A DNA stretch of 64,000 nt from Moniliella sp. 'wahieum' (GCA_003971905.1 RSEE01000074.1:1-64000), one strand, 5' to 3'; positions 5,556-64,000 are shown, counted from the stretch's first letter. The notes: a model not told the origin generated them from the sequence alone. Numbers and translations are program-made.

Positions 5556-5583
5556 TCAGGCCTCAGGCCTCAGGCCTCAGGCC
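5556..5583. repeat. (TCA GGCC)x4 heptamer array
   Basis: tcaggcctcaggcctcaggcctcaggcc read directly. Confidence 0.95.
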
Positions 5584-5865
5584 CAACAACGACAGGCACC
5601 CTCAAACCCAGAGAACTGCCCCCCCCGTAAACATTAAACGCGTGAAGCGTCAAGCGTCAGTACTACTCAGTGTGGGAGATGCTGGGGATGCGGTTGCAAC
5701 TTTTGGTTGAGGCCCTCAGGCCCCTCAGGCGCCACAGGGGGGCGAGTGTGGCGCCTGTAGCCTCTCAGTACCTTAGTCGAGATGATCGATGATCATCAAT
5801 ACACCTTTTTGTTTTTTTGCTCCCTTTTGTCACACATGTCACTAGGCCGCGGAGCATGGGAAGCT

Positions 5866-6026
5866 ATGGGATACTACAGGACACTACTCCGTCGATACTC
5901 GATACGATGAGATGGGATGTGGGATACAATGTGATGTGGGATACTCGATACGATGCGATGTGACATGTGATGTGACATGTGATCGCAAGTGATGGGATGC
6001 GATGCACGATGGGGCATAGGATGGGC
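5866..6026. repeat. Decayed ~5-bp periodic (GATGN-like) simple repeat
   Basis: gatac gatga gatgg gatgt ... cgatg cgatg tgaca tgtga tgtga ... gatgg gatgc gatgc. Confidence 0.6.
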
Positions 6027-7150
6027 GCCAAGGAAACCTCGCTGCCCTCGCAGCCGCCATGGAGCATGATGGAGAGCGGCACAGCTTGTCTCATGTCAAG
6101 AACATAATAGGCAACAGTTCTAGTTCTATGACGTTTTGTTGGATCAATATTCAATCGCGTTCAAACGTTTACACTGCTATCAAACGATTAGCAGGCGAGA
6201 AATAATGATTGTGGCGTCCGCTCAACTTTCAGCGATTTCAGCCTCAGCCCGAGCGCTGAGCCGCTCACATGCATCACAGTGCTCTGACGCTTCGGTCATT
6301 AACATTAATCATTACACTCGCCGATTTCAGTGTGCATCACATATGATGCGTGTGATGCAGATGGGCCGCTTGAAGCTGTTTCGAGCGATCCGAGTCCTCA
6401 TGCCATTCTTTCTGATCTTGGTACTCCATATGGTCCTAAGCGCTATTAACCGGATTAACCGTGCTATAACCCCATCAGGATACGGGCGGGCCCACCAGGC
6501 CGGCCTGGCCTCGACCTCACCGGCCTCACCAGTCGTTCGGCGATCTTAGCGCTGATCTCTCAGCTCTCCAGTGGCAGCCGCACAGCCTCTCTCAGTCTCT
6601 CGCACGACCACATCTGGTATATCAACATGAAGAGCAAGTACATATGTCAATTGGGTATAGCGCGAATCTTTACGCGTTAATCGCTTGGAAGGATGGAGGT
6701 CTAGGAGTGCTGGTCTAGTGACCGGCCTAATAAGGCCTCTCTGAGGCCTGAGGTGAGCCTCAGGACTAAGGCCTAAGGCCAGAGTATACTAGTGATTAGT
6801 GATTGATGACTGTGGTAGGTAACTGGTGACCGGTAAAACCGGTAACCATCGATCATGGCTGCGGTCACTGAAGATCACCGGCACCACACGCATCGAGCAG
6901 ATCGACCATTTTGTGATTGGTGTTCTCTGATCATCTTGATCATCAAACAGATCGCCCACACAAGTATGCGCAACAGGCCAGAATAGACCTCGTTTGTTCT
7001 CCTTGGATGGTTAATCGATTAATGATTACACCGATTCATGCATGGTGATGCACCCAGGTGAACCGACGGTAACATACTCGAAGATACTATACTGATTGTG
7101 GGCAACCCACCATGATCCTGTCGATTCTTCTCGCTGTTTATTTTCTTGTT

Positions 7151-7346
7151 TGTCAGGATACGGAGATGGGGGAAAGGGCGCAGATGGATTGCATACATCT
7201 ATGGACGCAGAGGAGGTATATGTACCTCCTCAGGAAGGGGGCACAGTCGAGAGGTGGACACAGGATCTCCCAACTGATAAGAATCACGCCATAGTGCCCA
7301 TACGGGTCTAGTGGCCAAGGGGCCCTAGCACGGCGTGAGTCTGACA
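7151..7346. mobile_element. Solo LTR (196 bp), family A
   Basis: Begins TGTCAG and ends CTGACA (6-bp inverted ends). 5-bp TSD TTGTT at 7146-7150 and 7347-7351. Homologous to 35405-35493. Confidence 0.9.
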
Positions 7347-8149
7347 TTGTTAAGTCTCTTTTCTCGCCTTTTGTAGAAGGCCAGTGAGTATTAGGCAGTT
7401 GATGGCGTATTGCATTACGCATGAGCTCTTCGTCATGTCAAGTACAAAACGCGCTTCGAGGCCGTACAGCTACAGCCTCCTCATCCTCTGGACGACGTAC
7501 ATCAGACATGGTTTCCTGCTACTGACGACAGAAAGCGGTACTCCGCCATGCGGGTGAACTTTGCATTAAGGCTGCTGTGGGATCGGCGTATAGACGATGG
7601 ACCGGAGGATAGCATGGGTGATATGAAACGGTGGACCGGTGGACTAGTATGTGAACTGTGGGATGGTGGACGGTGGACGAGGGGGGAAAGATGACGGGGA
7701 CCTTCGAATCGACATGGAGACAGGCCCAGGCGAAGCCCCAGTAGACTTGCAAAATACAGACTCCGGTAAATCACCATCTCAAAATAAGGTACCAGAGCGG
7801 GCCGTACTATAGGCGCGGTGGTCCCCTCGTAACGCGTAACGCGTAATAATGCAGAATGAGCAAGGATGGAGTTCTACGGTTGCCTGTGGTGATTAACATG
7901 ATGCCCTCCGCCATTTACTATTTACTACCCTTACTAAGTCACTGTTATCTATCGCTCCCCCGGATAATCGATAACCGGGGATCGGAGCAGGACCGGGCAT
8001 GTTATTGACTCTTTCCCGCCCCGGCCTCACCATTTCGCCTTATCTTTCCCTTGTTTTTAAGGCTTAAGATCTAAGGCTTTTGAAACGTGTCTCCCCATTA
8101 TTGCTCCCTATTCGGTTTTCTGGTTGTACTGCAGGTGATGCATGTGCCT

Positions 8150-8184
8150 TCAAGCTTCAAGCTTCAAGCTTCAAGCTTCAAGCT
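8150..8184. repeat. (TCA AGCT)x5 heptamer array
   Basis: tcaagct x5 read directly. Confidence 0.95.
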
Positions 8185-8572
8185 CTTCAAGGTTATTAGC
8201 CAATCACATTTTTCATGAGTCGCTTATAATAGCCTTAAGCTCTGTCAATGATATGGATTCGAAAGGCTAGTCACTAATAATAGTCACTAGTCACTGGTCA
8301 GTATACTGCATCCATATATCATTGACAGAGATTAAGGCTGGGACAACTATAAGAATCGCTGCCCCTAAACCGACCCGTTCACCTGCGTCTGATATTACTA
8401 CTTCTGATAGCCACTACTTAGTCAGTGATAATCATCACTAGTCACTAGTCATTACAGTAGTCCTTTGGCCTGAGACTGAGTACTCAGACTCAGTACTCAA
8501 ACTGAGTCCTAAGTCGTAACTGGCGAAGATGAAGCGCTACTTAAAGAGTAACCGCGGCTTGAAGTGTAACAA

Positions 8573-8608
8573 ATCTGTAAGTAATGATTAATCTGTAAGT
8601 AATGATTA
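8573..8608. repeat. 18-bp tandem duplication
   Basis: atctgtaagtaatgatta x2. Confidence 0.9.
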
Positions 8609-10155
8609 ATGACGGTAACTGACGTGTGTTTGAATAAGAAATTACTACATGCGGGGCTTTGCGTCCACAGAGGTAATCGGTAACCGGAGCACCCTGTATC
8701 AACATGCCACAAATTATCGATTATCACTGAGATAATAGTGATAGAGTGTCCTTCACATAGTTAGTTTGCTGAATTATCCAATAGATGCAGGGCTAGTTTT
8801 CTAATAAAGGGTTTGTGCTTCGAGTGCTTAGAAGCCCCTTTCCGATCTAATTTCTCTCCACCCCTTCTTTCGCATTTCACCTTAACACCGCAATGTTCCG
8901 AACTCTCTGTATTTTGGGGGGCCAGTGGGCGTATATACACCTTCCGCTGCATCCCAAAGGTGGGAAAATGAGACTCCAGTGCTCCTGGTGTACTCTATTC
9001 AGTCGACAGATCTTATAGATATTCAGCGAAGGAAGTGCGTTTTTGGGTCCATCTCTCTTTCTGTTGTGTGGGAAGACGAAGGGAATGAGGGAGAGACGGT
9101 TGTTCTGTTTCAAGAAGAAGCGTCTTGACAGAGGAAGGATACAGAGGGGAGAGTCGGACAAGAAGGAGTGATTACGAAAAGCTGACATGTTAGCGTAGTT
9201 TGCAATCACTACGCCAAAAACACTGCCATCCTTCCTACTATGGGTTAGATCAAGATCCTGGTCTACCTAAATAGGTGAATTGAATGATGAGGGGGCAGAA
9301 AGCCCCGCGGAAGTGTGGTTGGTGCTTTAAAGGAAAGCTCTGAATGATATTCAAAGCATCTTTCACACACCGTAGAAAAAGACGACCTTCTGAGGCAGCT
9401 AGGGACGCTCTGCACGTATGATGAGGGCATGTATCGGTGTGCATCTGAATGCCTACAACCGTGGGACAATGACGGACTCGCTCAGGCCACCACCTCTCAT
9501 ATATCGTCAAAATGCAATGAAAATTCACCGAAGCCACCAACGGGGGGTAGTGCACGACTGAGACGCGTCCCCACACCCTTTTACCACGACCACTCCTTTT
9601 TTCGTTACGACATGAGTGCGATGAGTATTTCTCCACGCGCTCAGCCCGTCCAAGAACCATTCTCGTCTATAAAGAGAGGGTGGTGACCCGAGTTGGAAAT
9701 TCAGGTCGGCGGTTACCGGTTACCAGGGAAACCCTGTGATGTCAGGTCCAACACGCTGAGGGGGGCAGGTGGGGGGGGTCTGACCCCCAGATGGCGGCTG
9801 TGATGCGCTGTAATGTGCTTCTTCTCAGCAGTGCGAAAAGGAAGGAGGCTCGCTCAGGTGAGAGCGATTGAATCAACAGCGCGCAAGACGCTTTGGTGCA
9901 TTGCCGTCGGGCAGCGGAGGCAGGACCGCGGCGATGCCGTCGTTGGCGGAGGTGTGGCAAGAAGGCTGGAAGGGGACTGAAAGCGATGACGCAATTCTGT
10001 CCAACGTCAAAATGGTTGGCCGTCCACGGGACCGTCACCGGTGGGTGAGCGGTGGTGGGCACAGGCCAGGTGCCCGCGAAGGGTGTCCACCGGCCACTGT
10101 CGATCAGATATCTGGTCGGTGATCGATGCGGCGCGTCCTGAGTATGTACTCAGGC

Positions 10156-10200
10156 ACCGGTCACCGGTCACTAGGTCATAGTCACTAGTCACTAGTCACT
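10156..10200. repeat. Mixed heptamer array (CCGG TCA) then (CTAG TCA)
   Basis: caccggtcaccggtcactaggtcatagtcactagtcactagtcact. Confidence 0.9.
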
Positions 10201-14165: not shown

Positions 14166-14184
14166 TCACGCGTCACGCGTCACG
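14166..14184. repeat. (TCA CGCG) heptamer array upstream of Tudor-SN
   Basis: tcacgcgtcacgcgtcacg. Confidence 0.9.
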
Positions 14185-20132: not shown

Positions 20133-21283
20133 CCTCAACCCCTTTTCCCAAGTCCCTATATCGCCACAGACCTTATTATCGTACCACTCGTCCTTCTCTT
20201 CTTTCTTTGCATTTTCGGTCGCTCGGAAGAACAACTTCCTCTCCCTGTACCGTCGTGTTCTTCTCAGCGACCCTCTTTCCCCCACTTTCAGTTGGACACC
20301 TATTTTTGCTGTCTCTCGCACCGCCTCTACGCACACCTTGTACAAGCTAATGTGGGTTTTTGGTTTAGCACGTGGTTTCCGTGTCTGCTGGATTGCTGGC
20401 TAAAGCAGGCAGTCTCTCACTCTCTTTGAGAGGCTTCCAGTATTTCCTAGATGGTAGCCATTGGGAACCCGTGTTCTCCAGTAAAAGGAATCGCATATTG
20501 GTTGCAGTACACCATGTCGTGACTGTCAGCTTAATACAGCCAATAATCGTAGCACCGTTACGTCCACTTCAAGTACATAACCAGCACGATAAACTTGGCC
20601 AGGGCGTTGGGGGAGGGTTGAATTCCATCCAACCCGACCCCCTGTGCCCGGCCTATTTGGACTTCCCGCCATCTGATTCTTGCAGGACAAGAAAGCACCT
20701 TCTTCCTATAATGTACCGACAGTAATATGGTATCGAGACTAAAGGCTACGCAGGAGGCTGACAATGGTGTGTGTGCGAGTAAGTGTGGCACATATTCACG
20801 TGTTATGTGCATTGGCCTGCATCTAGTGATTCTCCCCCACCGCGGCCGTTTTTTTCCCTGCTCACGACATCTCCTATTAGTTTAAGGATCAGCTCCACTG
20901 AAGTCTGTATGCTAAGTTCCTCCCTGGAACACCATCACACTAGCAACTGGATCGCTCTCTCGTCTCCACAGTGAACCCCCCGGCAAAAGGTTGCGATTAC
21001 ATCATACTATAGAGAGCACATATATAGTTAGTCCTTCTTCTCTTCAATTCTCTTCTCTTCTCTTTTCTCTTTTCATCTGTCTATACCAGAGAGCCGCATT
21101 TTGTACTCCTGTGTTTCTTGTAAAAGTGTAAACCGCCAGTATACACAGCCGTGACTCTATAGTCGGGAATGGACGAGGGATCCTGAACGACATTTTTGGA
21201 AGATGTAATGTTGCTTGGTACGTCTCTACGACAATATAATGAAGATCAAAAATACATGTATGCACTAATGTTGGAAAAAAAAT

Positions 21284-21367
21284 CGCCCCACGTGGGACTC
21301 GAACCCACAACCGTGAGATGAACCTCTTCGAATAAGAGTCTCAAATTCTACCGATTGAAAGCTAGGC
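21284..21367 (-). tRNA. Degenerate tRNA-Lys(CTT) with 13-nt intron (possible pseudogene)
   Basis: GCCTAGC TTTC AATCGGTAGAAT T TGAGA CT CTT A [TTCGAAGAGGTTC] A TCTCA CGGTT GTGGG TTCGAGT CCCAC GTGGGGC G, then a T-run. About 2 nt are missing at positions 9-10 and the acceptor stem has a mismatch. Confidence 0.75.
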
Positions 21368-21665
21368 TTGATACAAACTAACGGCCATACGCATCACCAA
21401 CGGTACACAGGAAGTTTTCTTGATGGACTGAAAAGCTTCAGACTTTGCCTTCACCAGCTTCTGTGTCGGTGACAATCGATGCCGCGCATCAGATCTCAGC
21501 GACTACTCCTTAAACACTGCCATACAAAGAAACAAACCCTACAGACGAGGCTTTGCCTCGACGTGCCAGCAGCCGCGCCGGTTCATTGGGACTGAGACGA
21601 AGACATCGGCGGGGGGAGCTGTGGGGAATTATATAGGCCACTCTCTCTTCGCCCTCTATAGGACA

Positions 21666-22420
21666 ATGGCAGCGATAGCCCCACGTGCTGCATATCGCTG
21701 ATGCAATATCAGCCCAGCTGTTGGCAACTCCTCTTGGAGCGTTTCAAATTGGCCTGTATATGAGGCTGCCAGTGGTGGCCCGTGTACCGGGGGCTAGTAG
21801 TAAACACCCTACGTTGTCAACCTCAACGCGGCCAAGCAGGCGCTCGCCTCGGCGGTGGCGGCCAACGATGTCAAGAAGCAGGTTGAAATCCGGTCGGCGA
21901 CCATCTGTTAAATGGTAGCGTGTCGCATCAACCACTCTCTGTTTTGGAAGAACCTTCTACTAAGCACCGCCGAAGGCAAAAGTGGGGGCCCGCGCTGCCC
22001 GACGGTCCGCTCAAGCAACAGATTGAGAAGGACTTTGGCTCTGTTGACCCGTTCAAGGGCCCAATTTAACACGCTTACTGTTGCTGTCCAGGGCTCAGAC
22101 TGGGGATGCCTGTGGGGTGGAATCCGCCGGCGGGCAACCTGGAATGTACGTTGCCTAAATTTGAACCCAGCCGAAGGACTGAGGGATGTTGAACTAACTA
22201 CAAAAGAACCAATCCGCATTTGGCGGTGGGCGGTGGTGGTGACCGCCAAGGACTAAGACTCACTCATTTGGCACATCCCCATCATGGTTTAGTGGATGTG
22301 TGTTGGGAGCATGAGTACTACCTGCAGTACAAGAACCTCGTCCGTACCTAGAGGCCATCTAGAGTGACGTCAACCCGAAAGAAGCTGGGCACCTCTTTGC
22401 CGAGAGGCTTCCAAAGTCCT
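21666..22420 (+). pseudogene. Mn/Fe superoxide dismutase (SOD2-like) pseudogene
   Basis: ISAQLL, KH..YVVNLN, INHSLFWKNL, AVQGSDWGCL (canonical GSGWGWL), WEHEYYLQYKN (canonical WEHAYY). In-frame stops TAA (~22254) and TAG (~22360). Intron remnant with GTACGT at 22146 and ACTAAC at 22193. Confidence 0.85.
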
Positions 22421-25400
22421 AGCGTAGCTGTAACGGTTGCGGGTCCCCAACGAGCTCAGCGGAGGGAAGTTGGCGGTACACGATGATGTGAGTAGACTTT
22501 GTTCAACTCCAATGGACCCTCTCCCTCTGTGTGTCCACGGAACCCCGTGAGGAGTGTTTCATAGTAGGGTGGACTGTCATATACGCAGAATGCGTGGGCA
22601 CCGTTGGCATTACATGCTGCGTGCAAAGCAGTGTGCACTGCTTTCCTTTTGTTCGGCTTGTCCCCCGCTGCTGCACATAATGACCCCAGTAAATGAGATA
22701 GTCTTCCAACTAGTTGTAGAAACCATCAGCACCGTGGCCGGTTCGACTCCATCACAACGAAATGAGGCGCCCGGACGAGGAAACGGACGTCCAGATCCGG
22801 CAGCTCAACTTAGGGCACACTTGACTCAATACCAAAGACCAAATATTTGAAGGAGAACAAAATCAGTATTAGGGACTCAAAGTCGCGCACGGATCTCTCA
22901 GCGTACGAAAGGGACTCGATCTTGGTGGCCCATATCGAAGGAAGCATGATCCTTTTAGGCGCAACGGAGTCTATGGGTTGTTTTTCAGGCGAACCAGCCC
23001 ACAGTGACCCGTAACTTTATCCACCCCCTCACAAGGCGTGTCCTCACGCCGAATGAGAGAACATTTTAACATCCCTCCGAAGGAGAAGGGCTTCAAGAAC
23101 AAGTTGAAGAAGCGACCATCAGTCGAATGTGCACCTCCTGAGGGTACGCTACCCCTACTGAGACGAAGGAGCACACCCGGTTGCGAGCTTGGCCCCAATG
23201 CTTCTCACCATGGTGGATGTGGAAGGCGACCTCGGCCAGTGACTCATCACCCAAATCTTTGGCTGGGATCTACTAATCGTTCTCCGACTCAGGAACAAAG
23301 GAGACGAAGAGATATTGTGGAACTGGTGCCGATAGTAGCGGATGTACAAAATCTTGTCCACCAACCAATGCTCTTCTCACCGTTCAGCAGTAGTCGGTGG
23401 AGGTAAAGGATCATGCCGCGGAGCCACCTCGTCAAAACGGTAAGGCTCAAGACCAGACACATTCAATACCATATGAATCTTGATCGAAGCCGGCAGGTCA
23501 AGAAAAGAAAGGCACCTTCATGCACTTTTGCCTTATAACATCGAATTGAACCAAATGTCTTCACTTCAAAGGTCCACTGGGACATGTGAGGGGATTCTTT
23601 CTTGGTCAACCGTCAAAATCGAATCCCCACCTCCAGCTGAGGAGCTTCGTTACGCAGACGACCTCTCCAGATCGCTTTGCCCGCAAGCAAAAACATGCTC
23701 AAGAGCCTCCTTGGCTGGGATTGCAGCAGTGTCGCGAGCAATCTCATGCCCTTGACCCAACGCCATCTCTCCACCACAGTGTCACCAGGTTTGTGAGTGG
23801 GTGGAACCCATGCATGATGTATAACGGCGACGGGTCCGTCGATACCGAGTGATCAGTACTGTTAGAGCGAAAGCCGTGGCATCCAGATACTCGACCCAAA
23901 CGGACTGCGCACATGGCTGACAAAGTGAAGATGGGTCTGAACCAATTAAGTCGAAAAACCGCTCTGATTATCCATCCAACTGAGGATGCTGGGCAGTGAC
24001 TAAAATTTGACGAATGCGGTCACGGGGGGGGTCTCGAGACGGAGCCCGACCCCAGAATTTAGGGGTGAAGCCCTTGGGCGTGGAATCAGAGTTACATACT
24101 TCGGTAGCCCTGCTTCAGATTCTGGTTGAACGATGAGCGGGTGTAGAAGCAAGGGAGAGACCCTCTATAGTTTGGGCGGCTGCCTGCATGCAAAGGCCGG
24201 CTCAGACACTCCGAGGTAGGAGCCGCGTAGGTAATCGTCAGATCAGTTGAAAAGGGATCCATGAGCTCCGAGATAACGCGGTTTCCCGGTGGAGTTACCA
24301 CACGCGGCGCGCTGTGTAGTAGGCGGAATCAGACGAAGTCCTGGTAAAGAGCCCGCGCGATACTTACTGATAGTAACTGCGGCTTGAAGAGTGTGGTCCA
24401 TGTAAGTCGTAAATTCGTAAGCGTATATGGGTGAAGGATTTACAAGGGTGAAGAGTGGAGAGGAAAGTCGGAGGGGAAACAAGGGTTGGGCTGTGAGGAT
24501 CACCGCCCATTGGTCTACAGAATGTATAGGGGAATCGAACCAAGTGTGGAGAAGTGTGCTGGACCAACCACGAAATGCATGAAGAGAGAAACGAGGCAAG
24601 GGTCAAGGGTCAAGGGCAAAAATGACCCGAGACGAGAACCGAGGTGAGAGACCGAGTCGAATCCATATATCAAGTTTTGGAGTTTAGACGCGCGAAGAGA
24701 CACGGAGAAGAGACATTGTTTTATGGGTTTTATAGATAGGCTGAGAAACTCAACATGAGTCATGCGGCTATAGCGAAAGAGAACATGAACATTGATACGG
24801 AAAGAAGCCGAGAAGCGATAGAGACGATAAGGGTGTGGAGGTGGCTGTACAAGGCGACTTAGTCGTCCCCCCGTGACACTATAATACGCTTTGCGGCATC
24901 TCCATTGCGGTCTCGACAATAGCCGAGTGGATCAGGGCGTCTCTACAGTCCGACAAGACGGAGGCCATGCCGTCGCGCCGCCCCATCCCACCCTTGTTGT
25001 ATCCCACATACTCTCTGCGCTTGCTGCACTGGATACAGGGCAAGCCACGTTCCTACTGTGCGTTGTCTTCACCGACTCTAACGCGCTAAAGGTGTGCCAC
25101 GACAGAGCATGGTCTTTTGACTAGCACGTTGCTCGAATCCTTACCGTCACGAAGCACAAACCGGGCCAGTTATTCTGAGAGTGCACTCGGCTCTCCAATA
25201 CAATCGTCATCAAACAACTAGAGAGATTCTGAAGAAATTTAGATTTGGCGACAAGGAACTGCATGATTAAGGGGACACGTTTGAGTAACGGTGCACCAAT
25301 AACTACATCAAGTTTAGCAAACTGCGGTGTCAGGAGTGGTCTTGGTCTATCTCACCGTTGCTCGGCCCTGCATCTTGCCCGCCATTGCCTCGGCCTCAGC

Positions 25401-25971
25401 CCCAGAGGCAAGGTTCATGTTGGCTGTTATAGTTTGGCTGGTCTCGCTCACATTTCCAAATTCTTTGTCCCGAGCGTTTCGCTCTTTCCCTGTTCTTCCG
25501 CTTGGCACCATATCCTCTGCCTTGTTCTTTCTTCCCCCACGAAGTTCGTGATCGCTACATTCATTGACCTAGTCTCGACTCTGGTCTCCCTCGCCGCAGC
25601 TCCGACCATGACAACGGCCTGAGCCCCAAATCGCAGGATTCAGCCTGCGGAAGAGAAGTCTTATCTATCGCCTGATGGTATATGGAATCACAACGGACTC
25701 TCTTCCCCTTTTGATTGTATAGAGCACAACATGGGGTGTTGTCCTGTGGAGGCGATCGGCAATTGTGAAGGAGAGGTGCGTTACCACACCGTGTCCTCCT
25801 TGTTCTGATGCACATCTCTCACCTACTAGTATAGTAGCCTATCCATTTGCAATTTCCACGGTGGCCTCTCGCCCGCGGTGTGAAGCGTGCGGGTGATGCA
25901 TGATAGTCTGGGCGGGCGTGTTAAAGTACCAGGGGCCTGGGACCCACGCATGTGATACGCGTCTGATGATC

Positions 25972-26079
25972 TGATGCATCATGCATCATGCATCATGCAT
26001 CATGTGGTTCGATGATCAAATCGATGGAGGGAACCCGTCACGCGTCACTAGTCACTAGTCACTAGTCACTAGTCACTAG
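25972..26079. repeat. Adjacent heptamer arrays: (TGCA TCA)x4, then TCA CGCG (TCA CTAG)x5
   Basis: tgatgcatcatgcatcatgcatcatgcatcatg ... tcacgcgtcactagtcactagtcactagtcactagtcactag. Confidence 0.95.
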
Positions 26080-30177: not shown

Positions 30178-30473
30178 GGCCGGCCGCAGTGTGCCAACCA
30201 CGGAACAGAAAGTCGAGTGCGACTGCCCGTGGTGCTGAGGGGAAAGGCTAGGGAGGAGACGGAAGAGGAGAGGGAGGAGGAGGAGGGGGACGAAAGAGGA
30301 GGGGGAGAGGGGGAGGGGGACGGAGGAGGTGGTGGCGGTGGAGGTGGTTGGTGGCGGCGCGGCGATGGCGGTGGAGGTGATGGCAGTGGGTGTGAGGATG
30401 TATCGCGCTGGATGCTGGGGTAAGGTGCTGTGGGCGCTGGAAGACCAGCCTGCTGGGCGCAGCGTGCTCAGTG

Positions 30474-39868: not shown

Positions 39869-40095
39869 TGTAAGACCGGAGGAACCCAAGGGGTTGGGTG
39901 ATGAACCTCTGGAAATTTAGAAAGCAATACAATCGCGGTGTGGTGGTGGTTAGGTCTAATAAGCCTTATGCCACACCTAGAGGAGACAGAGGTTCAAACA
40001 AAGCCTGAGTATACACGAGGAGACTTCGTAGGTCAAATAAGGGGCAAAGGGTGATAAGGCGCCTTGGCCTCTGTACGGGACCGCGGTTCTCAACA
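39869..40095. mobile_element. Probable solo LTR (227 bp), family B
   Basis: TGTAAGACCG ... CGGTTCTCAACA (imperfect inverted ends, TG..CA); 5-bp TSD GTTCG at 39864-39868 and 40096-40100. Confidence 0.75.
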
Positions 40096-42302: not shown

Positions 42303-42445
42303 AAAGGGAGACGAGGGGAAATAAGGCCTAAGGGGAGACAAGGGGAGATAAGGGAGGCAAGGGGAGATGAGGGGAAATAAGGCCTAAGGCCTAAGGGGAG
42401 ATAAGGGGAGATAAGGGGAGGCAAGGGGAGGCAAGAGGAGAAAAG
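42303..42445. repeat. Purine-rich ~10-bp minisatellite (GGGGAGATAA / GGGGAGGCAA) with embedded TAA GGCC units
   Basis: ggggagacaa ggggagataa gggaggcaa ggggagatga ggggaaataa ggcctaa ggcctaa ggggagataa ggggagataa ggggaggcaa. Confidence 0.85.
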
Positions 42446-48409: not shown

Positions 48410-48440
<31 letters not shown>

Positions 48441-54967: not shown

Positions 54968-57130
54968 GGAGGGCGGGTGGCGGTGGCGGTGGCTGGCCGC
55001 GGTGGCGAGCAGCTGGCGAGCAGCTGGCGGGCAGCTGGCGGGCGCGGCGCGGGCAGGCGGGTGTGGTGGAGCTCTGGCGCTTCGGGGCGGTGCGGCGCGG
55101 TGCTGCCGGGCGGCCGCCGAACAAACCAACGCAAAAAGCCACACCGCACCCAGCCGCGCCCGCCACTGCCCCCGCGCTGCTGTCTCACGCCGCTGCTGCG
55201 TGAATTCAGTCGGCATCAGCGCTGCGCTGACATCACCCATCCGCTGCAGCCGCGCAGCAGCCGCACGGGGGCACTGTCACGCGCGGCGGGCACTGCGGGC
55301 GTCGTCTGCGCCTGCCGTTTCAGTCGTTTTTCCATCTGCATCCTACGCGTACTCCGTCTGAGTACGCAGTGCCTCAGCGCAGCCCCCGCACCGCCTACCC
55401 GCTCCCACGCTGGCGTGAGCTCAGCTCTCGTGACCCCTGACGCTCACGCTCACGCCTCAGCACCTCAGCCTGACGCCCAGACTCCCCCCGGTAAGCTCAC
55501 CGACCGAGCGGCTCAGCGCCAGCGGGACGGGCCAGGCGCTGGCCTGTGCTGACAGGCGCCGGCTGCCTCCCGTCCAGTACAGGGCCAACTTGAATTGTTG
55601 AGCTGAGCACGCAGAGTACTGCCCTACTAGCACTACTCGTGGCGGCCGACGACCCAGATCGTTTTGACAGAACTTATCAAGCTCTAGCTTGAGCAGGGCT
55701 TGAAGGCGGAGTACAATTGGGTCCTGGGCCTGCCAGAGCACTAAAGACGAGTGCTCAGTGTGTTCAGCCACACTTCACATGGAGGGCCTCCGTCAGCGCG
55801 TGGTGCCGCCTGCATACTAATAGTGGCACCGATATCTCAAACACCCGGTTTTCTTAGGTGCATTCCATCCGATATTCCTTCCTAGAGGGCAGGAATATCC
55901 TCTACACTTTGTACCCTTAACGCAATCAACGTTCAACGTTCAACTATTATATCTGCGTGTCTGATCATCGAGTTACCTAATCATCGTTACCGGGGCCTTA
56001 CTGGTTACCGACGCTCAGCGCTTAACTATGCGCTTACCGGTTACCACGCAACGTACTTGAAGATTGAACGTTGAACGCCAAACGACGCGCCACGCGTCAC
56101 GCGCAGGGATTGGAATCTCAGAAACTTTCTCACAGGCCTCGGCCTCATTGCCTCATCGATCATCGAGCACCGCACTCACTGTGCACCGTGCGCGTACAGA
56201 CAGGTGCTGCGACTGTACGCAAGCGGCTTTGAGACGCAAGAGGTTCATTAATCGATTAATCATTGTTACGTTCAACGTCACGTTCTGTTGAATGGAAGCT
56301 CAGCCTGAGCGTTCAGCGAGCGGTTCAGCGAGCGCCGCTCAGGCTCGGCGTTCAGTCTCAGATCCCAGCCTTACCAGTTATAGGTTGCCGGTTACCGGTT
56401 ACCGTTACGCGCTACCGGTTACCGGCCTCAACAAGCGACTAGTCGCAGTGACTAGTGACTGGTGGCGCGTGACGCGACGGAGGGGCCCGGCATGTGTCAT
56501 CGTAATGTGATCCATGTGACACGGGACGGTCAATGTCCTGCCGCCCAGCGCCCGTGTAACACGTAAATCAATATAAATAGCCTCCCAGTTCGATTTCAGT
56601 CCTCTCAGCTTTCAGTGCTGGCCTGTATTGGGTTCAGCCGCTGGGCGCTTAGCCCTAAGTCTACTCAGTACTCAGTTTCAGTGAGTACTCGGTAATCCTC
56701 TGCAGCGTTCCGAGCGCAAAAAAGGCCATGCTGTACAGCGGTGGACCACATGCTGCAGGAACCCAGTCCAACATCGCCCATCCTGCATCCGTCCAAAGAC
56801 AACCTGTCGATCCTGCTATTGCAACACGACATCGAGCTAGGCACTAGTCACTACTACTTCATCGAGTCAGCTAGTCCTAGTCATCGATCATCTCGCAATG
56901 GGGCCGAGGACAACATCCGATAACTTGGTACTTACAAGTTATTAGGTCCCCAAATCAGTAACCCGTACTCTGAGATCTGAACGTCTGAACCCAGACATGC
57001 GCGTACTGTGCTTCTAGTGATGATATTTCGACAACCAACAATTGAAGCCACATCGACCGGTGGCCATCGACATCCAGCATGCCAGGCCAGTACCAGGCCC
57101 TGCCCAACCACACCCAGGGCATGTGGCAGG

Positions 57131-57219
57131 TGACATGTGACATGTGAAGCATGTGAAGCATGTGAAGCATGTGAAGCATGTGAAGCATGTGAAGCATGTG
57201 AAGCATGTGAAGCTTGAAG
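57131..57219. repeat. (CATGTGAAG)x8 nonamer array flanked by TGA CATG and TGA AGCT heptamers
   Basis: Units at 57141-57212 read directly. Confidence 0.95.
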
Positions 57220-57321
57220 AAGCCGTCGGAGAGACAGGTGTCCGGTAGGAGCGCGCACACCTGAGATGTTCCATCGATGACCTTATTATAACAGAGAGTG
57301 TATACGCGCAGGCGCTCGCGC

Positions 57322-57470
57322 TCAAGCTTCAAGCTTCAAGCTTCAGTTCTCAAGCTCTTCAAGAGCTTCAAGCTTCAGTTCTCAAGCTCTTCAGAGCTTC
57401 AAGCTTCAGTTCTCAAGCTCTTCAAGAGCTTCAAGCTTCAGTTCTCAAGCTCTTCAAGAGCTTCAAGAGC
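57322..57470. repeat. ~32-bp unit x4 built from TCA AGCT variants
   Basis: gcttcaagcttcagttctcaagctcttcaaga starting at 57333, 57365, 57396, 57428. Confidence 0.9.
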
Positions 57471-57996
57471 CTCTCTCCGCGAGGGTTAATGCCAAACGTT
57501 AAACGTTATCGATCTGTTACATGTTACATGTCACGTCGTTACGCGTTACGCGTTACGCAAGATACATATCGCGCGTGTGGCATATAAAAGTGTGCTTTGA
57601 CGGTGAAATTGGTGAAGCTTGAAGGGTAACCGGTAAGGCCGGTAATCGATAATCGACGACCCTTGTGCATGCTCGCGCTCATGTGATGCTCAGCGCTGAG
57701 GCTCAGCTGAGCGCGCCCATGCCATCCATGACAATGTGACACAGAGAAAGCCAAGGCGGAGATGAGATCGATGAGACCGAAAAACAACGTAGGCATCTAT
57801 TGAAGTTCTTTTTTTCTGGCAGCAACAAGAGTTGGTTTGGTACTGATTCGGAGTATTCAGACACGTACTGAACGTACTGAGTAGTACCGACGTACTGAAT
57901 GTTGAACGTTGAACGTGTTATACACGTAACGTTGAACTCGTACCCAGTATACTCAGCGTTGGACTGAGTGAGGCCTGAGGCCTGACTGAAAGCATG

Positions 57997-58126
57997 TTAA
58001 CGTTTAACGTTTAACGTTTAATGTTTAACGTTTAACGTACCGTGTAGTACGTGTATCGTCGACGTATCATCGATTGATTTCGTTCATTATCATTCCCTCA
58101 TTATGCATTATGCATTAACGTTTAAC
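57997..58126. repeat. (TTA ACGT)x6 and TTA TGCA TTA TGCA TTA ACGT TTA arrays
   Basis: Read directly at 57997-58038 and 58101-58126. Confidence 0.95.
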
Positions 58127-59450
58127 CTCATTGACCATTCCGTACCATAGCGTAACGGCGACCGGTAACTGACGGTAACCGGTAACCCCCCGTATATAGT
58201 AGGTCACTAGATCACTATACAGATTGGTAGAGTATGACTTACGAAAACACTCGCGATCCTATATGGATCAGCTGCAAATTCAAACAGCCTTCATCAGATC
58301 TTCAGACAAGGCGTGAAGGCAAAGGCTGAGCTTGTGCTAACGTCTGCAAGCGTCAAGCTTCAAGGTGAGATTTGACATGCCGTTTTTGCCCGTAGAAATA
58401 AACAACCAGAATGTTTCGCCTCTCCACAAACAATCGCGTGTTGAGAAAGAGAGAAGATCGACGGTGGCCGGGGTGTAGGATGTGTGACATGTGAATCTCA
58501 TCGATCATCTCTGTCATGCATATTGAGACCATCGGCCCTGAGCCTGACCGGTGACGGTCACCGGTCACCCCACCATTCCACACCGGGCTCAGCGGCTCAG
58601 CCGCCGCCTTCTCTCCTGTTGCTGCGGTGATGGGGTTGGATGACTCGTTGACCCTCCTTTTGTTGTTGGGCAGAGAAGCGGCTTGCGGGACTTAGATCTT
58701 AGAGGGCACTTGCCGTTCACACTCTCATTCTCTCAGAGATCACTGTTCAACTCAACGTTGACCCTGAATCAGGCCTCCCTTCAATATAAATCAGCCATAT
58801 AAGCTCTAGGCCACATCGGCCTTGCACAGGCAACCTTACCGGTATTGACCCGAGGTGAAATCTGAGATTTCGATGGGATGGGAGATCTCAATCGTCCCCG
58901 GACCCAATCCACTTCTCGGGGAGTACCCGCAGTAGTACGCAGTAGCGCGTGCCGTACCCCTGATCCTTCATCTGCACATCCACACATGTCCATGCATGTC
59001 CATCCCCATCCCCATCGCAGATCACTAATCACTGGCGCGTCTAAACCAAAAAGGGAGAAACGCCTGACACCTACCATTTGCTTCCCCCCCACGCTGCAGT
59101 CGAACCGCGGTCGCGGTGGATGCGCCGTGGAGGCTGGTCGTGCGAGACAGTGCTACACTACGAAAGGAGCGGTCCCCGTCCGCGCCTGGATCGCGAGACA
59201 AAAAGAGCGAAGTGGTCATTGGTCCAACGGGGAACAAGGGGGGTATGACGGAACGAGGGCGAAAAAAGACAAGGATCAAAGGACATGAACTGATGAGGCG
59301 GAAAAAGAGAGCAACAGTCACAGCGAGATAATGAAGATGGGAGGGGGAGATGGGATGGCAGAGCAAAATCCCACCGTCAAGGGGCGAGTCAGCGTGTGGC
59401 CTAGTAAGTTAATAATGGTAAATGAAGGCAGAGTGGGGGGGGGGCAGGGG

Positions 59451-62400
59451 CTAGTCGAGCGGAGGGCCAAATTTGGTGGTGAACCAAGTGCCCAGGTCTT
59501 GCCAGAACCCCTCGGCGCGGACCATGTACTTGCGGCTGGGCTCGACCGGCGCCGGTCTGCCGCCAACGGAAGCAGGTCGTGCGCGGGACAGAGGGCGGGG
59601 GACGGGGCGGGAGGGCGGTCGAGCAGTGCCAGCTCCGTTCCGGGGCCGGGTAGGCTGGGTGGGCTGCCGCTCGCCGGTCCAGGTGCGCGGGAGACGGGAC
59701 GCGTTGGTGGAGGAGCACAGTTTGGTCAGGACCACCTGGCTCTCGATGGCGTATGGTGTACACTCGGTGCCAGGCACCAGGGCGTGGCAACAAAGTTTGG
59801 CCGCGCTTCAAGGGCGGATCCAACCGGGCGAGCGGGACGTGACGTTTATTAGCTTCCTCTGCTACGCGGACATCCAACTCGTCCGCACTGTTCGGCACGT
59901 AGGGTGCCCATGCCCAGTCCCCACGCGCACTGTACCCTCCGAAACCGCATACGCTTCCCCCAGCCCCCACCCTTTGCTCGATGCGGCGCGCGCCGAGCGA
60001 CCAGTCATCGACGGTGTCGCCGTCGCTTTGCCCCGGCCCCAGTGCGCTTGTCGACTGCCGGCGGCCGAGCCGAGTGCGGACCACGAGCGACCGCCGCGCG
60101 GCGCAGGCCGCGGCTCAATTGCCGCGGGCGCGCCACCGAGGCCCGAGCGGGGTGGGCGACGGCGTGGGCGCGGTGCGGGGCCGGGCTTGGGGATTGTGGT
60201 GCGGACAGAGGAGGGGGGGACGGCATGGGGCTCGCAGTAGTAGAACTTGGTCCTCGACGGGACGCGGGGACACCAAGTCGTGTGCGCTGCCATCTTGGTG
60301 GCCTGGGCTTGAAGGTCAGCATGCGACCGTCGGATCACTTCCTGGCTTGCCTTTCTCTTGTCGACTCGGCTGAACAATGATCAAGTCCGGAAGCGAAACC
60401 GAGGCGTTGGGGGAGTACGAATGCCGGCTGGAACGGCTCGGTAGCTTGGGACAGGTAGAGCGGGAAGAGGGGTGGGCATGGAGGTCGATGGATGTGCCAG
60501 GAAGGAGGCGTTGGTACGGGCCGCTGAGGGGGATTTGGGGCAGAAGCAGTCGGGGGAGGCTGCTAAGGCCTTAGCGCGCGTGGGGGCAGAAGGGGTGGCA
60601 TGAGCCACTACAGGTGCAAGGGCGTGGAACTTTCACCAGGGTGGAATGGGTCGGCGAACGACGAGGCATGAGGAACGACGATTTGGGGCGGGGGGTAAGC
60701 GAGACATGACTCCACTTGTTGTAAACCAAAGTGAGGTAGATGGAATCGTCGGCAACCGGGCGGGTGTGGGAGACGCAGCAATCAGATCGGTTGGGACGGG
60801 GGGGAATGGTACCTTCTGGAAGCCACTGGCTGTTGCTGGCGTCGTCCCACCCGTCGAGGCAGGCGATACCGACGAGGACAGTTTCGTATGGACGCGGAAG
60901 CAGCAGCTGAAGCAGCGGTGGGAGAGGGGGAGGCGAACGGGGTAGAACCACGGTGCCCGTGGTGGTTGCAGTCCCCGCATTAGAGGGAGAGAGCGAGAGC
61001 CCGCGCAAGCCACGCCCTGGCGAAGGGGAGTAGTTTCCCCTTGAACTGGCACGAGACCCACCGCGCGAGGTTCGAGCGAGACGAGAGACGGTGTGCGAGA
61101 TGGAGGGCGAGAGGTAGGATGGGTAGTAAGGGGGAAGGAAGGCCGACGGTCGAAGGGGGTTGCGGAGTGTGTGGTTCATCTCTAGGTGATCGACGGCTGA
61201 AGCGGACGGAGAGGGTCAGCAATACTAGCAGATAATTGCAATGATTTATCCCTTCGTCCACAGGAGCAAGGCTAAGGCAGCGATCCGGCGTTGTACCTTT
61301 GTTGCGTCCCGCGCGAAAGCGGCAAAACCCGCGGTCAGAGCGTCATGACGTTTGTCTAGTTCCTTGGCGTGGACACGAGGTGGCCATGAAATGCACGTTC
61401 GGCCAAGGCAGCCAGGGCAGTCCGGGCTCGGGAAAGAGCAAGAAAGTACTAGTCTTTTCGATTCGTCAGCGCCCGCACTGCCGAACTCAGCTCGTCAGCC
61501 GTTTTGGGACAGCAGAGACGGCTCGACCTCGTGCGAGCTGGCAGAGATCTCTTTTTACTCTTTCCGGCTGATCCAGACCATCCCGAGCGGTCCGCAGGGC
61601 CATCTCGAGCGCCGCACATAGGTCTGACGCATGGTTGACCGTGGAAAAGGCGCTGGCCTGGTTATCGGACTTGGCCTCGTCCTGGGCCATCCGCGCCTGG
61701 TTGCATCCGGGCCCAGCATAGCCCCAAGTGTGGTGCTGTGTTTTCAGCGAAGCGATAGCACAAGCATCGCTGCCCGTGGCCCGGGCGCAGACTCCCCGGT
61801 AAGTGGGAGCGAATCGGATCGTTCTCGTCCATGGGTTGGCTGAGGGGGCGGACACGGTCAAACTGCAGTCCCAAGGGGTTGGATCCCGTCGTTTTGTCCA
61901 TGTCCATTGCGGCGAACTGCGGGGAGCACTCTGCCGCCCATGGCTCTGCTGTCACTCGCCCCAAGCGGGTGGGGGCAACAAGGACTCGGATCAACTCATC
62001 GTCAAGCTCCCATTGGTCTCGGTTGTGGCGGTGGTGATGTAGAAGCCATACTGGTCGTTCGCGTGTGAACATTGGCACCGTTTCCGAATGGAACTAAATC
62101 GACGTGCGGCAATGTGCCTTGAGCAAAAGCTCGTTCCACCTCAGGTAGTATAGTGGCTGCTTGATTGGCACATTGCTCGGCCTCCGCCATGGTTTGATCC
62201 AACCGAGCGGATACGGTGGCTAGCGCATTCTCTTGGTCTATTCCTGCACCACCTGCCACCACATCTGGGGAATGACGCACTTCCTGGAACCGAAAGAGAG
62301 CGGCTTGGACGGCCTCGATTGCTTGGCTCCATGCCGCGGCGGTACGGATGGCCATGGCGATGGATACCTCGGTCTGGTCAAGTGAGAGGGGGATCTTGCT

Positions 62401-63484
62401 GGGGCCTACACTGCGGCTGGGAAAGGGCATGGCGTCAGCGGCAAGCGGCTGGGGATCTCGGATATTGGACAAAGGAAGCACCCGAGCAAGGGTGTGTCGC
62501 AGGCCGTCGGATACGGAGACTGTGCGGGACCGAGGGAGGAAGCCATCGGAGGCAGGGCTGTCAGGCGGTACGGGTACGGACGATGAGCGAGATCCAGGCC
62601 ACGGGGTGGTGGGGGTGGGGCCTGGCGTGGTGGGAGTGAGGAGGTGCGGCTGGTGGGGGCCGGCAAGGGAGCGGGAGCGGGTGCAAAGAAGCGCATACTT
62701 TTGGGTGGTTCAGGCGTGGGCGGCGATGGCGGCGGGGAGGGGGGGGGGGGTAACGGCGGTGGCAAGGATGAAGACCGCGCGGCGCAAGAGATGGGCGGCG
62801 GGACGAGGACGAGGACGATGGCAGGCATGGGGAAGATGAGTTGGGGAGGGGCACAAATGGTGCCAGAGGATGGGCGCCGAGGGTGTTGGCGATGGGGGAA
62901 AGCGGGGCAGTGGAGACAGGGTGCGGGGCAAGCGGTGGCCGAAGGGGCACGGGCGCGTGCAGTCTGAGCAAAGCCGAGCGTGCAGGCGAGCCGGCGGACG
63001 ACATGTCGGCGGTGGAGCGTGTCTGGGCAATGGCTCGCGCACGGGCCCGCGCCCTGGCTACGGCCGAAGCGCGGTCGAGCGAAGCGACAGGGGGGCGCGG
63101 CACATGCACCGGCCTGTCCACACCATCCGCCGCACCCACCGCACCCATGGCATCTGCCGCGCAACTGTGGGATCCAGGTGCTGGGAAGATGTGCGGACGT
63201 CCGCGGTGGTTGCCGCGGGCATGGCGATTGCCACCTGCACCAGCGCCAGTGCCATCACCAACACCATCACCAGCACCGACACCATCAGGACCAGGGCTGG
63301 GGGAACGGGCCGGGCTGTCTGGACCAGGGCCGGATGCTTGGAGGGCAGCCGAGGAGGAGGGGCCATCGGGTGGGCACTCCATGTGTGGCGGAGGGCAGGC
63401 ACTGGGGCTGTGGGTGGTGGGGGTGGCGGGGGGAGGCGGTGCCTGTCCGTCCTCAACCGCAACGGTGTGTGGACGAATGGCCAT
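59451..63484 (-). CDS. Hypothetical protein (Pro-rich N-terminus, no recognisable domain); frameshifted, start uncertain
   Basis: Chain of overlapping minus-strand ORFs with ordered-looking segments, a clean intron at 61197-61296 (GTACAA..GCTGAC..TTCAG), ending ...WQDLGTWFTTKFGPPLD*. Confidence 0.6.
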
Positions 63485-64000
63485 GCTAACCACACCCTGT
63501 GTGGCGCAAGCGCAAGTTGAAAGTGGCAAAAAGCCAGCTGCATGTGCCCTCCAACGCCATCGACGTCATCGATCAGTACTGAGATCCTGCAGCACCCACA
63601 TCTTGTGCGACCGATGTGATCTGTGTGTGACAGCTGGTTGATTCAGCCCTGGCCGCTTGCCACATCTGCTTCCCCCCTCCTCAGCCCACCAGCACGCCCA
63701 TGCGACAGGGCGCATCGTGGCGAGCGCCCTCCGCTCTGCCATGCAGTGGGGCAAACGCCAGATGGGTGTGCGAGGTGCAACACATGCATGCATGGTTACT
63801 AGTTACGCTTACTGGTTATTAGGGTGGGGCCACCTTTTGCTCATTAACAAAGCAAATCCTCCCCACAATTTTAGACGCAGGGGCCTATCTGTCCCTTTTT
63901 CACTTCGACTGGTCCTATGTATATACCACCCCGCCCTACACCCCTCGCCACCCGTCCCAGCATCAGCGTTGTTGCTGCCCACCGCTATTCAGCAGCAGCA

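What the first reader, a model, noticed from the sequence alone, without database searches (positions are those of the whole stretch)
5556..63818. Intergenic DNA is written in a sequence-independent 7-bp grammar: (TNA + any 4-bp palindrome)n
Seen: dozens of short arrays share one rule although their sequences differ. Each unit is a perfect odd palindrome ab-T-N-A-b'a' repeated head to tail. Cores found by eye: GGCC (5556), AGCT (8150), GTAC (~8477), CCGG and CTAG (10156), TCGA (13161), CGCG (14166, 33849), TGCA (25972), ACGT (30474, 57997), CATG (~30690, 57517), GCGC (34022), GATC (~35819), TTAA (~36260). That is 13 of 16 possible cores; I did not see AATT, ATAT or TATA. The spacer is always T-N-A (mostly TCA/TGA, also TAA/TTA). 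Slippage expands whatever seed exists and would not enforce a TNA centre plus perfect dyad symmetry for arbitrary flanks. Inference: an enzymatic process creates and duplicates these 7-mers. Options are (a) repeated insertion/excision or staggered cut-and-fill by a transposase-like nuclease with a TNA-centred target (established analogies: PIF/Harbinger TWA targets, 7-bp palindromic TSDs of Galileo, palindromic P-nucleotide footprints from hairpin-forming hAT/RAG enzymes), or (b) iterative fold-back synthesis by a repair polymerase. Every TNA is a stop codon on one strand, and period 7 hits all three frames within three units, which fits their apparent absence from CDS.
Basis: partly seen in the sequence, partly recalled or inferred. 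Interest (0 to 1): 0.88.

Follow-up and report, generated by a model that had tools for sequence, protein, structure and literature searches.

The report
Palindromic 7-bp scars at TNA sites
The non-coding DNA of this fungal genome piece is peppered with 7-base insertions made at T-N-A sites, whose structure looks like the scar of a DNA-cutting enzyme that seals and reopens DNA ends as hairpins.

Summary
The window has 99 exact period-7 tandem runs of 14 bp or more, against about 3-4 in Markov simulations. Of these, 73 are T-N-A plus a 4-bp palindrome; none is centred on ANT, CNG or GNC.

The title overstates the extent. Strict period-7 arrays cover 4.4% of the non-coding DNA.

The arrays are not the elementary unit. 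That unit is a 12-mer, [TNAxy][y'x'][TNAxy]: a 5-bp direct repeat with a 2-nt filler that is the reverse complement of xy. It occurs 34 times in unrelated flanks, against 0.1 expected. In 97 of 112 terminal TNA-palindrome-TNA 10-mers the palindrome is copied from the adjacent flank.

Best reading (inferred): a 7-bp staggered target centred on N is duplicated. The flanks are then sealed as hairpins and nicked 2 nt off the tip, giving 4-nt 3' tails. Ligating either strand gives the 12-mer. Heptamers that are already palindromic give cohesive tails and an exact 7-bp duplication, so arrays grow. Slippage adds to this.

The likeliest agent is a cut-and-paste transposon, or an enzyme derived from one. 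None lies in the window. My literature searches found no description of this.

The parts
5350..10150 (.). non-coding-like compartment 1, rich in TNA-palindrome units
   Evidence: GC 0.48-0.54. No Pfam-bearing ORF. Part of the 26.5 kb that holds 194 of 216 12-mer hits.
20450..27000 (.). non-coding-like compartment 2
30430..42350 (.). non-coding-like compartment 3, the densest
   Evidence: Chains of TNA with changing cores, in phase.
55600..58850 (.). non-coding-like compartment 4
5556..5583 (.). array of TCA+GGCC, 4 copies
   Evidence: DNA hairpin -9.5 kcal/mol, z -4.45.
8148..8184 (.). array of TCA+AGCT, 5.3 copies, followed by a 2-nt CT insertion and another palindromic heptamer
10155..10200 (.). 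two abutting arrays in phase (cores CCGG, then CTAG) that share the TCA register
25974..26004 (.). array of TCA+TGCA, 4.4 copies
26044..26079 (.). array of TCA+CTAG, 5.1 copies
30474..30503 (.). array of TGA+ACGT, 4.3 copies; it heads a chain of TNA units with other cores (TCGA, GCGC and others) up to about 30575
33848..33873 (.). array of TCA+CGCG, 3.7 copies; its length is 7n+5, as expected for an array seeded by the 12-mer
57997..58038 (.). arrays of TTA+ACGT (N = T)
33748..33759 (+). isolated elementary 12-mer [TGATG][CA][TGATG] in unrelated flanks
35512..35523 (+). isolated elementary 12-mer [TCAGA][TC][TCAGA]
38975..38986 (+). isolated elementary 12-mer [TCAAG][CT][TCAAG]
56034..56045 (+). 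isolated elementary 12-mer [TTACC][GG][TTACC]
6515..6530 (+). period-9 product [CCTCACC][GG][CCTCACC], in which the 2 nt on each side of TCA are equal; this is the predicted 2-nt tail-pairing outcome
57761..57776 (+). period-9 product [GATGAGA][TC][GATGAGA], same class
57130..57221 (.). 9-bp array (CATGTGAAG, about 8 copies), read as heptamer TG-TGA-AG plus a 2-nt flank-derived filler, then expanded
   Evidence: family D3
39023..39101 (.). 16-bp higher-order array made of two TGA+AGCT units plus AG
57322..57488 (.). 31-32-bp higher-order repeat that contains TCA+AGCT arrays
   Evidence: family D5
31688..31707 (.). 7-bp array whose TNA is mutated (TGG+ACGT) in all copies; it grew without an intact TNA, so slippage also acts

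Best explanation
These are repair scars of a site-specific DNA-breaking process that acts on T-N-A in non-coding DNA. Most likely it is repeated insertion and excision of a cut-and-paste transposon, or the action of an enzyme derived from one. No step below has been observed directly.

Proposed steps:
1. Integration at a 7-bp staggered target centred on N (pq-TNA-xy) duplicates that heptamer.
2. On excision both flanks are sealed as hairpins. Each is nicked 2 nt from the tip. This leaves 4-nt 3' tails, xyy'x' on the left and q'p'pq on the right.
3. The two tails lie opposite each other in a gap of exactly 4 nt. Ligating either strand, then copying it, gives pq-TNA-(xyy'x' or q'p'pq)-TNA-xy. 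That is a net +7 bp and is the observed 12-mer [TNAxy][y'x'][TNAxy].
4. This product contains a palindromic heptamer. At a palindromic heptamer the two tails are complementary, so the ends religate cleanly as an exact 7-bp tandem duplication. Arrays therefore reinforce themselves.
5. Hairpin-prone arrays also change length by replication slippage.

The TNA, the 'any palindrome' and the period of 7 all follow from the geometry. No sequence-specific reading of the palindrome is needed.
For: Shown by sequence statistics:
- The 12-mer class occurs 34 times against 0.1 expected. Its flanks are unrelated: the left 2 nt match the filler at 0 positions in 24 cases and at 1 position in 10, which is about chance. 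So these are not decayed arrays.
- The pattern [abcxy][y'x'][abcxy] is found 216 times with a..c = T..A against 0.5 expected. All other classes together give 74 against 8.2.
- The palindrome is flank-derived in 97 of 112 terminal or isolated TNA-pal4-TNA 10-mers; chance is about 12%.
- The second TNA keeps the same N: 174 same, 19 complementary, 9 other. A duplication predicts this; a pure fold-back does not.
- Array ends fall at three phases 2 nt apart: after TNA 17, after TNAxy 18, after the full core 16. That is 51 of 73 ends, with mirror starts at 48 of 73. These correspond to tail removed, native flank and tail kept.
- The predicted 2-nt tail-pairing product (pq = xy, period 9) occurs 4 times against 0.0 expected.
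- Exact duplications of palindromic heptamers: 57 against 0.
- No extended target consensus beyond T.A at 54 isolated sites.
- Arrays fold as DNA hairpins with a TNA triloop, -5.4 to -9.5 kcal/mol, z -2.5 to -4.9.

From the literature (passages read in PMC5499845): hAT, Transib, MULE and RAG make hairpins on flanking DNA. Host enzymes such as Artemis open them, and end joining leaves footprints.

Recalled, from no call: Artemis nicks about 2 nt 3' of the tip, giving 4-nt 3' overhangs.
Against: - No transposase domain was found in 228 stop-to-stop ORFs of 100 aa or more.
- A scan for inverted termini flanked by 7-bp TNA-centred duplications found 4 candidates, all of them array-against-array matches.
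- No superfamily whose TSD length I read in a paper has a 7-bp TNA-centred target. hAT is 8 bp and MULE 8-10 bp (PMC5499845). Transib is 5 bp with GC-rich targets (PMC1131882).
- Plain 7-bp duplications of non-palindromic units do not share a TNA-centred register: of the 12 such arrays that contain a TNA, only 2 start 2 nt before the T.
- Products with both tails lost (TNATNA, 59 vs 59.8) or both kept (period 11, 0 found) are absent. The model explains this only by assuming single-strand ligation.
- Arrays run longer than uniform re-hitting would give (my rough estimate). The model therefore needs cohesive-end advantage, local re-insertion or slippage.
- Six of the 11 TNA-less arrays read as a 4-bp palindrome plus a one-mismatch TNA (my reading of the list). 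So growth can occur without the target.
- In one search the mirror-image count of the 12-mer was not measured, because of an anchoring error in my script.
- No related genome could be examined.
Confidence: 0.5

Rival explanations
1. A transposon-less, site-specific nuclease or recombinase, for example a domesticated transposase, cuts at TNA. Host repair then produces the same duplication plus palindromic filler, with no mobile element ever sitting at the site.
For: No element or transposase in 64 kb. The density of scars is very high: 216 pattern hits in the window. The target is only T.A.
Against: Duplicating the heptamer needs gap-filling synthesis, and spacer-free palindromes need covalent hairpins. 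Both come naturally from integration followed by excision. A simple cut does not supply them (inference). No candidate gene was seen in the window.
Confidence: 0.15
2. Polymerase template switching or fold-back synthesis at breaks or stalled forks creates the inverted 2-nt filler and the repeat.
For: Arrays are self-complementary and fold. 19 of 202 TNA-core-TNA cases have the complementary N, as a true fold-back copy would.
Against: The xy|y'x' palindrome has no spacer, which a polymerase snap-back cannot make (established constraint, recalled). N is the same in 174 of 202. The strict T.A requirement (216 against 74 for all other classes) has no polymerase explanation.
Confidence: 0.1
3. Ordinary replication slippage expands chance seeds, with hairpin-forming units favoured. 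No dedicated enzyme is involved.
For: Arrays with a mutated TNA still expanded: 6 of the 11 TNA-less arrays read as palindrome plus near-TNA. Arrays fold as hairpins. Higher-order repeats exist.
Against: The 12-mer is not a duplication of pre-existing sequence, yet occurs 34 times against 0.1. CNG- and GNC-centred palindromes would fold better but are not enriched. Period-7 runs number 101 against 3.3.
Confidence: 0.05
4. PIF/Harbinger-type or Tc1-type footprints: a 3-bp TNA duplication with 2+2 nt of transposon termini left between the copies.
For: TNA-NNNN-TNA with the same N is found 174 times against 3.0 expected. TNA or TWA is the PIF/Harbinger target (recalled).
Against: The filler matches the adjacent flank in 97 of 112 cases, so it does not come from element ends. 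At least 11 different cores would need as many element families. TNATNA is not enriched. Pure 10-mers without a flank match: 5 against 1.3.
Confidence: 0.03
5. Selected cis-regulatory arrays (for example bZIP-like TGA/TCA half-sites), or a sequencing or assembly artefact.
For: The units are confined to non-coding DNA. TGA and TCA are half-site-like (recalled).
Against: Cores vary freely and follow the flanks. Copies decay by point mutation and indels. An artefact would not respect the coding/non-coding boundary or the T.A rule. Reads were not available to me.
Confidence: 0.04

Closest known systems
Excision footprints of transposons that form hairpins on flanking DNA (hAT, Transib, MULE) and P nucleotides of V(D)J coding joints
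   Same: A target-site duplication is retained. Short spacer-free palindromic additions are copied from the untrimmed flank end. Joining is by end joining. (Mechanism passages read in PMC5499845; P-nucleotide rule recalled.)
   Different: The duplication here behaves as 7 bp centred on T-N-A. The published lengths are 8 bp (hAT), 8-10 bp (MULE) and 5 bp with GC-rich targets (Transib) (PMC5499845, PMC1131882). The outcome is nearly deterministic (+7), and it builds arrays. No element was found.
[quoted passage not shown] 2012 and Schirawski et al. 2010)
   Same: Same subphylum, judging by the best named GH18 hits. Short intergenic repeats read as transposon scars. TNA+4+TNA is 10 bp long.
   Different: I could not see the sequence of those repeats. 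Laurie 2012 is not held. Identity with this pattern is therefore untested.
PIF/Harbinger target sites (TNA/TWA, 3-bp duplication; recalled)
   Same: T-N-A as the only specified target bases.
   Different: There is no 3-bp duplication signal, and the filler is flank-derived.
Microsatellite and minisatellite expansion by slippage at hairpin-forming repeats
   Same: Copy-number growth of arrays. Hairpin-forming units. Expansion of units with a mutated TNA.
   Different: It cannot create the 12-mer seeds or the T.A rule.

Membership tests
Slippage-driven tandem repeats (sole cause) | New copies are duplications of pre-existing sequence, with no constraint on the unit | tested here: not met
   The 12-mer contains a 2-nt inverted filler (34 vs 0.1). 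Only T.A-centred units are enriched.
PIF/Harbinger footprints | 3-bp TNA/TWA target-site duplication (recalled) | tested here: not met
   TNATNA with the same N: 59 vs 59.8 expected.
PIF/Harbinger footprints | Element or transposase present | tested here: not met
   0 transposase domains in 228 ORFs. This covers the window only.
hAT | 8-bp target-site duplication (PMC5499845, PMC1131882 passages) | tested here: not met
   Same-N TNA pairs at period 7: 275 vs 42. At period 8: 84 vs 38.
hAT / Transib / MULE / RAG | Hairpin on flanking DNA, giving palindromic additions at the joint | tested here: met
   The filler is the reverse complement of the adjacent 2 nt in 97 of 112 cases. This is a sequence signature only; the chemistry was not observed.
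Transib | 5-bp duplication and GC-rich targets (PMC1131882 passages) | tested here: inconclusive
   The direct repeat in the 12-mer is 5 bp. However, plain 5-bp duplication is not enriched (gap 2: 42 vs 36.8). No palindromic addition is seen on the TNA side. The target is T.A, not GC-rich.
MULE | 8-10-bp duplication (PMC5499845 passage) | tested here: not met
   Period 7 dominates.
P/Galileo-type elements | 7-bp palindromic duplication (recalled from the finding; no paper read) | not tested
   No element in the window; no eukaryotic genome collection was open.
Any cut-and-paste transposon family | Resident copies with inverted termini flanked by the duplication | tested here: not met
   4 candidates, all array-against-array matches. 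The only dispersed element has TG..CA ends and 5-bp non-TNA duplications.

The most novel reading that the evidence does not exclude
A low-copy or domesticated hairpin-forming transposase with a 7-bp, T-N-A-centred target is a leading source of insertions in this basidiomycete lineage. It adds intergenic DNA 7 bp at a time. It also creates its own 'landing pads': palindromic heptamer arrays whose 4-nt cohesive ends let breaks heal cleanly. The unexplained 10-bp repeats reported for Ustilago maydis could be the same scar.
Probability: 0.3. Interest if true: 0.8.

Novelty: new variant of a known kind. Interest (0 to 1): 0.7.

Why it matters
If the reading is right, the sequence alone records the geometry of a DNA-breaking enzyme: a 7-bp stagger, a T.A target and hairpins opened 2 nt off the tip. 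It also shows how one repair outcome can seed self-reinforcing repeat arrays.

It would name a major, lineage-specific source of insertions and of hairpin-prone, fragile intergenic DNA in relatives of smut fungi. It would also make the old 'transposon footprint' idea for these streamlined genomes directly testable.

Tried and rejected
**Mechanistic models**
- Model A (3-bp TNA duplication plus transposon-end filler): rejected.
- Model P (break at N, both flanks palindromised, giving two different palindromic heptamers side by side): rejected. Only 5 such pairs at distance 7, which is the background level at other distances.
- 5-bp duplication with symmetric hairpins: rejected. There are no [TNAxy][N'A][TNAxy] products and no period-5 signal.
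- hAT-type odd hairpin (one base offset): does not fit, because both y and y' are present at the joint.

**Search for the agent**
- Pfam on 228 ORFs: no transposase.
- Inverted-repeat and duplication scans: nothing real.
- The pair at 8231-8339 is an inverted repeat without a matching duplication.

**Organism**
- The RTP1-like ORF found nothing in the word-indexed search. The 418-aa ORF at 13509-14765 also found nothing.
- In the exhaustive search the RTP1-like ORF reached only 34% identity.
- The GH18 exon gave basidiomycete hits. The named hits at 52-56% identity include many Ustilaginomycotina. The Atlas gave only weak phylum leads.

**Literature**
None describes TNA-palindrome heptamers.
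- Literal 14-mers of five arrays occur in no held paper.
- Laurie 2012 and Laurie 2013 are not held.

**Not checked**
- No eukaryotic genome collection was open, and metagenome and viral contigs were closed. Relatives, strains and reads therefore stayed unchecked.


Full report
**Setting.** The window is nuclear DNA of a eukaryote with multi-exon genes. Pfam on stop-to-stop ORFs finds:
- an acyltransferase fragment (2944-3336, minus strand);
- a Tudor-SN-like gene (SNase at 14282-14971, Tudor at 16364-17092);
- a GH18 chitinase (19338-20400);
- a nitronate monooxygenase fragment (43822-44205);
- an actin-like fragment (47195-47713);
- an RTP1-like gene (48504-50816, minus strand).

The GH18 exon finds basidiomycete proteins. 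The named hits at 52-56% identity include many Ustilaginomycotina (Parajaminaea, Sympodiomycopsis, Kalmanozyma, Melanopsichium, Ustilago). Unnamed hits reach 75-78%. The RTP1-like ORF reaches only 34% identity to the best of 1.84 billion representatives. The lineage is therefore thinly sampled.

Four GC-poorer stretches without Pfam-bearing ORFs total 26.5 kb: 5350-10150, 20450-27000, 30430-42350 and 55600-58850. Their GC is 0.512, against 0.608 elsewhere. I treat them as non-coding.

- Exact tandem runs of two or more copies number 99 at period 7, against 17 at period 8 and 13 at period 9. Order-3 Markov simulations give 3.3 +/- 2.1 period-7 runs.
- 73 of the 99 rotate to T-N-A plus a 4-bp palindrome. 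None has an ANT, CNG or GNC centre. 26 are not palindromic.
- TNA-centred 7-mer palindromes number 455, against 188 +/- 11 expected. The other three centre classes sit at expectation.
- In the non-coding stretches 355 of 1792 TNA (19.8%) are followed by a 4-bp palindrome, against 88 of 1171 (7.5%) elsewhere.
- Eleven cores occur in exact arrays, and three more (GCGC, GATC, ATAT) in 12-mers or imperfect arrays.
- The claim of extent is too strong. Strict period-7 coverage is 4.4% of the non-coding DNA.

**The elementary event.** I sorted period-7 runs shorter than 14 bp by length and phase. One class stands out: length 12, from the T of TNA to the second base of the next core. It occurs 34 times against 0.1 expected. 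Its neighbours (length 13: 12; length 11: 10; length 10: 5) are much rarer.

- Written out, the class is [TNAxy][y'x'][TNAxy]: a 5-bp direct repeat separated by the reverse complement of its own last two bases.
- The flanks are ordinary, unrelated sequence and match the filler no more often than chance. These are therefore primary events, not eroded arrays.
- Across both strands the pattern is found 216 times with T..A in the first and third positions, against 0.5 expected. All other base pairs together give 74 against 8.2, many of them other registers of TNA arrays.
- At 54 isolated sites no base beyond T and A is preferred.

**Where the palindrome comes from.** In 97 of 112 terminal or isolated TNA-palindrome-TNA 10-mers, half of the palindrome equals the two bases just outside one of the TNAs. 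Chance would give about 12%.

- The 'any 4-bp palindrome' is therefore a copy of the flank plus its inverted copy.
- This removes the need for many element families. It rejects a filler made of transposon termini.
- It also rejects a 3-bp TNA duplication. TNATNA is at expectation (59 vs 59.8), and pure 10-mers without a flank match are few (5 vs 1.3).
- The second TNA keeps the same N in 174 of 202 cases. This marks a direct duplication rather than a fold-back copy.

**A model that fits.** The steps are inferred. The chemistry is taken from passages of PMC5499845 on hAT, Transib, MULE and RAG. The 2-nt hairpin-opening rule is recalled from no call.

1. A 7-bp staggered target centred on N (pq-TNA-xy) is duplicated by integration.
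2. At excision each flank becomes a hairpin and is nicked 2 nt from the tip.
3. The left end then carries the 3' tail xyy'x', and the right end carries q'p'pq.
4. The two tails face each other across a gap of exactly 4 nt. Ligating the top strand gives pq-TNA-xyy'x'-TNA-xy, which is the 12-mer. Ligating the bottom strand gives its mirror image.
5. The net gain is always 7 bp.
6. If the heptamer is already palindromic, the tails are complementary. The ends religate as an exact 7-bp tandem duplication (57 such duplications against 0 expected).
7. Every 12-mer contains a palindromic heptamer, so arrays seed themselves.

Other features follow from the same geometry:
- Array ends cluster at three phases 2 nt apart: after TNA 17, after TNAxy 18 and after the full core 16, together 51 of 73. 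These read as tail removed, native flank and tail kept.
- When the bases on the two sides of TNA are equal (pq = xy), the tails can pair by 2 nt. The predicted period-9 product is found 4 times against 0.0 expected.
- Abutting arrays with different cores, in phase, are expected from the two alternative ligations (10155-10200; the chain from 30474).

**What does not fit, or is only assumed.**
- No transposase and no element with such duplications lies in the window.
- No superfamily whose duplication length I could read has a 7-bp T.A-centred target (PMC5499845, PMC1131882).
- Products with both tails lost or both kept are not seen. I explain this by single-strand ligation, which is an assumption.
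- Run lengths modulo 7 peak at 0-2, not at 5. Many arrays therefore have ends reshaped by one-sided deletion or by slippage.
- Non-palindromic 7-bp arrays show no TNA-centred register. Six of the 11 TNA-less arrays read as a palindrome plus a one-mismatch TNA. Arrays fold into DNA hairpins with a TNA triloop. Replication slippage therefore contributes to growth.
- In one search my script did not count the mirror 12-mer, because of an anchoring error. Searches cover both strands.

**Rivals.**
- A transposon-less nuclease or domesticated transposase cannot be excluded. It would, however, have to supply both the duplication and the hairpins.
- Polymerase fold-back is disfavoured by the spacer-free palindromes, the retained N and the strict T.A rule.
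- Slippage alone, transposon-end footprints, selection on binding sites and artefact are each contradicted by at least one test above. I could not check reads.

**Comparison with what is known.** The signature works like hairpin-type excision footprints and V(D)J P nucleotides. It is not shown to belong to any named superfamily.

- Ten full-text searches found no description of TNA-centred palindromic heptamer arrays.
- The nearest statement is in PMC4081816 (passages read). [quoted passage not shown] TNA+4+TNA is 10 bp long.
- The source paper is not held, so identity is untested. Supplements of those papers were not seen either.

**Verdict.** I rate the finding a new variant of a known kind of process. 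My confidence is about 0.5 that a transposon, or an enzyme derived from one, is the agent. It is about 0.8 that a site-specific break with hairpin processing, rather than slippage, creates the seeds.

Noticed in passing
window 7151-7346 and 35405-35493: A dispersed element of about 89 bp in two copies, 95-97% alike, with TG...CA inverted termini (TGTCAG/CTGACA). Its perfect 5-bp flanking duplications (TTGTT and CGCAG) contain no TNA. It looks like a tiny solo LTR or a MITE, and it is unrelated to the heptamer target.
   Followed up: partly
window 7195-7302: A 108-bp insertion inside copy A of that element, absent from copy B. Its ends look imperfectly inverted (CATCTATGGACGC against CACTATGGCGTG, by eye), and CAT/CATA is repeated at the junctions. 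It may be a nested small element.
   Followed up: partly
window 1345-1450 (-): Rfam finds a tRNA of 106 nt (42 bits, gathering score 29), presumably with an intron. ARAGORN reports no tRNA in the window.
   Followed up: no
window 18413-18583 and 17552-17589: A (CCAT)n array of about 42 copies lies just upstream of the chitinase gene. About 1 kb away is a G16 run with GGAAGG repeats that is its imperfect inverted partner (82% over 33 nt).
   Followed up: no
window 42295-42447: A 10-bp purine-rich repeat (GGGGAGATAA-like, about 8 copies of a 33-nt reference) interleaved with TAA+GGCC units at the edge of a gene-rich stretch.
   Followed up: no
window 8231-8254 / 8316-8339: A 24-nt inverted repeat (96% complementary, 61 nt apart) encloses TCA+CTAG heptamer units. 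No matching flanking duplication is present.
   Followed up: partly
window 48504-50816 (-): The RTP1-like ORF reaches only 34% identity to the best of 1.84 billion representative proteins. The GH18 exon finds 75-78% unnamed relatives. The organism appears to lack a close sequenced relative with named proteins.
   Followed up: partly
window 48410-48437: An exact 7-bp array TAGAAAG x4, with no TNA and no palindrome, in the gene-rich part next to the RTP1-like gene. It does not fold (0 kcal/mol). It is an ordinary slippage-type repeat, which serves as a useful contrast.
   Followed up: partly
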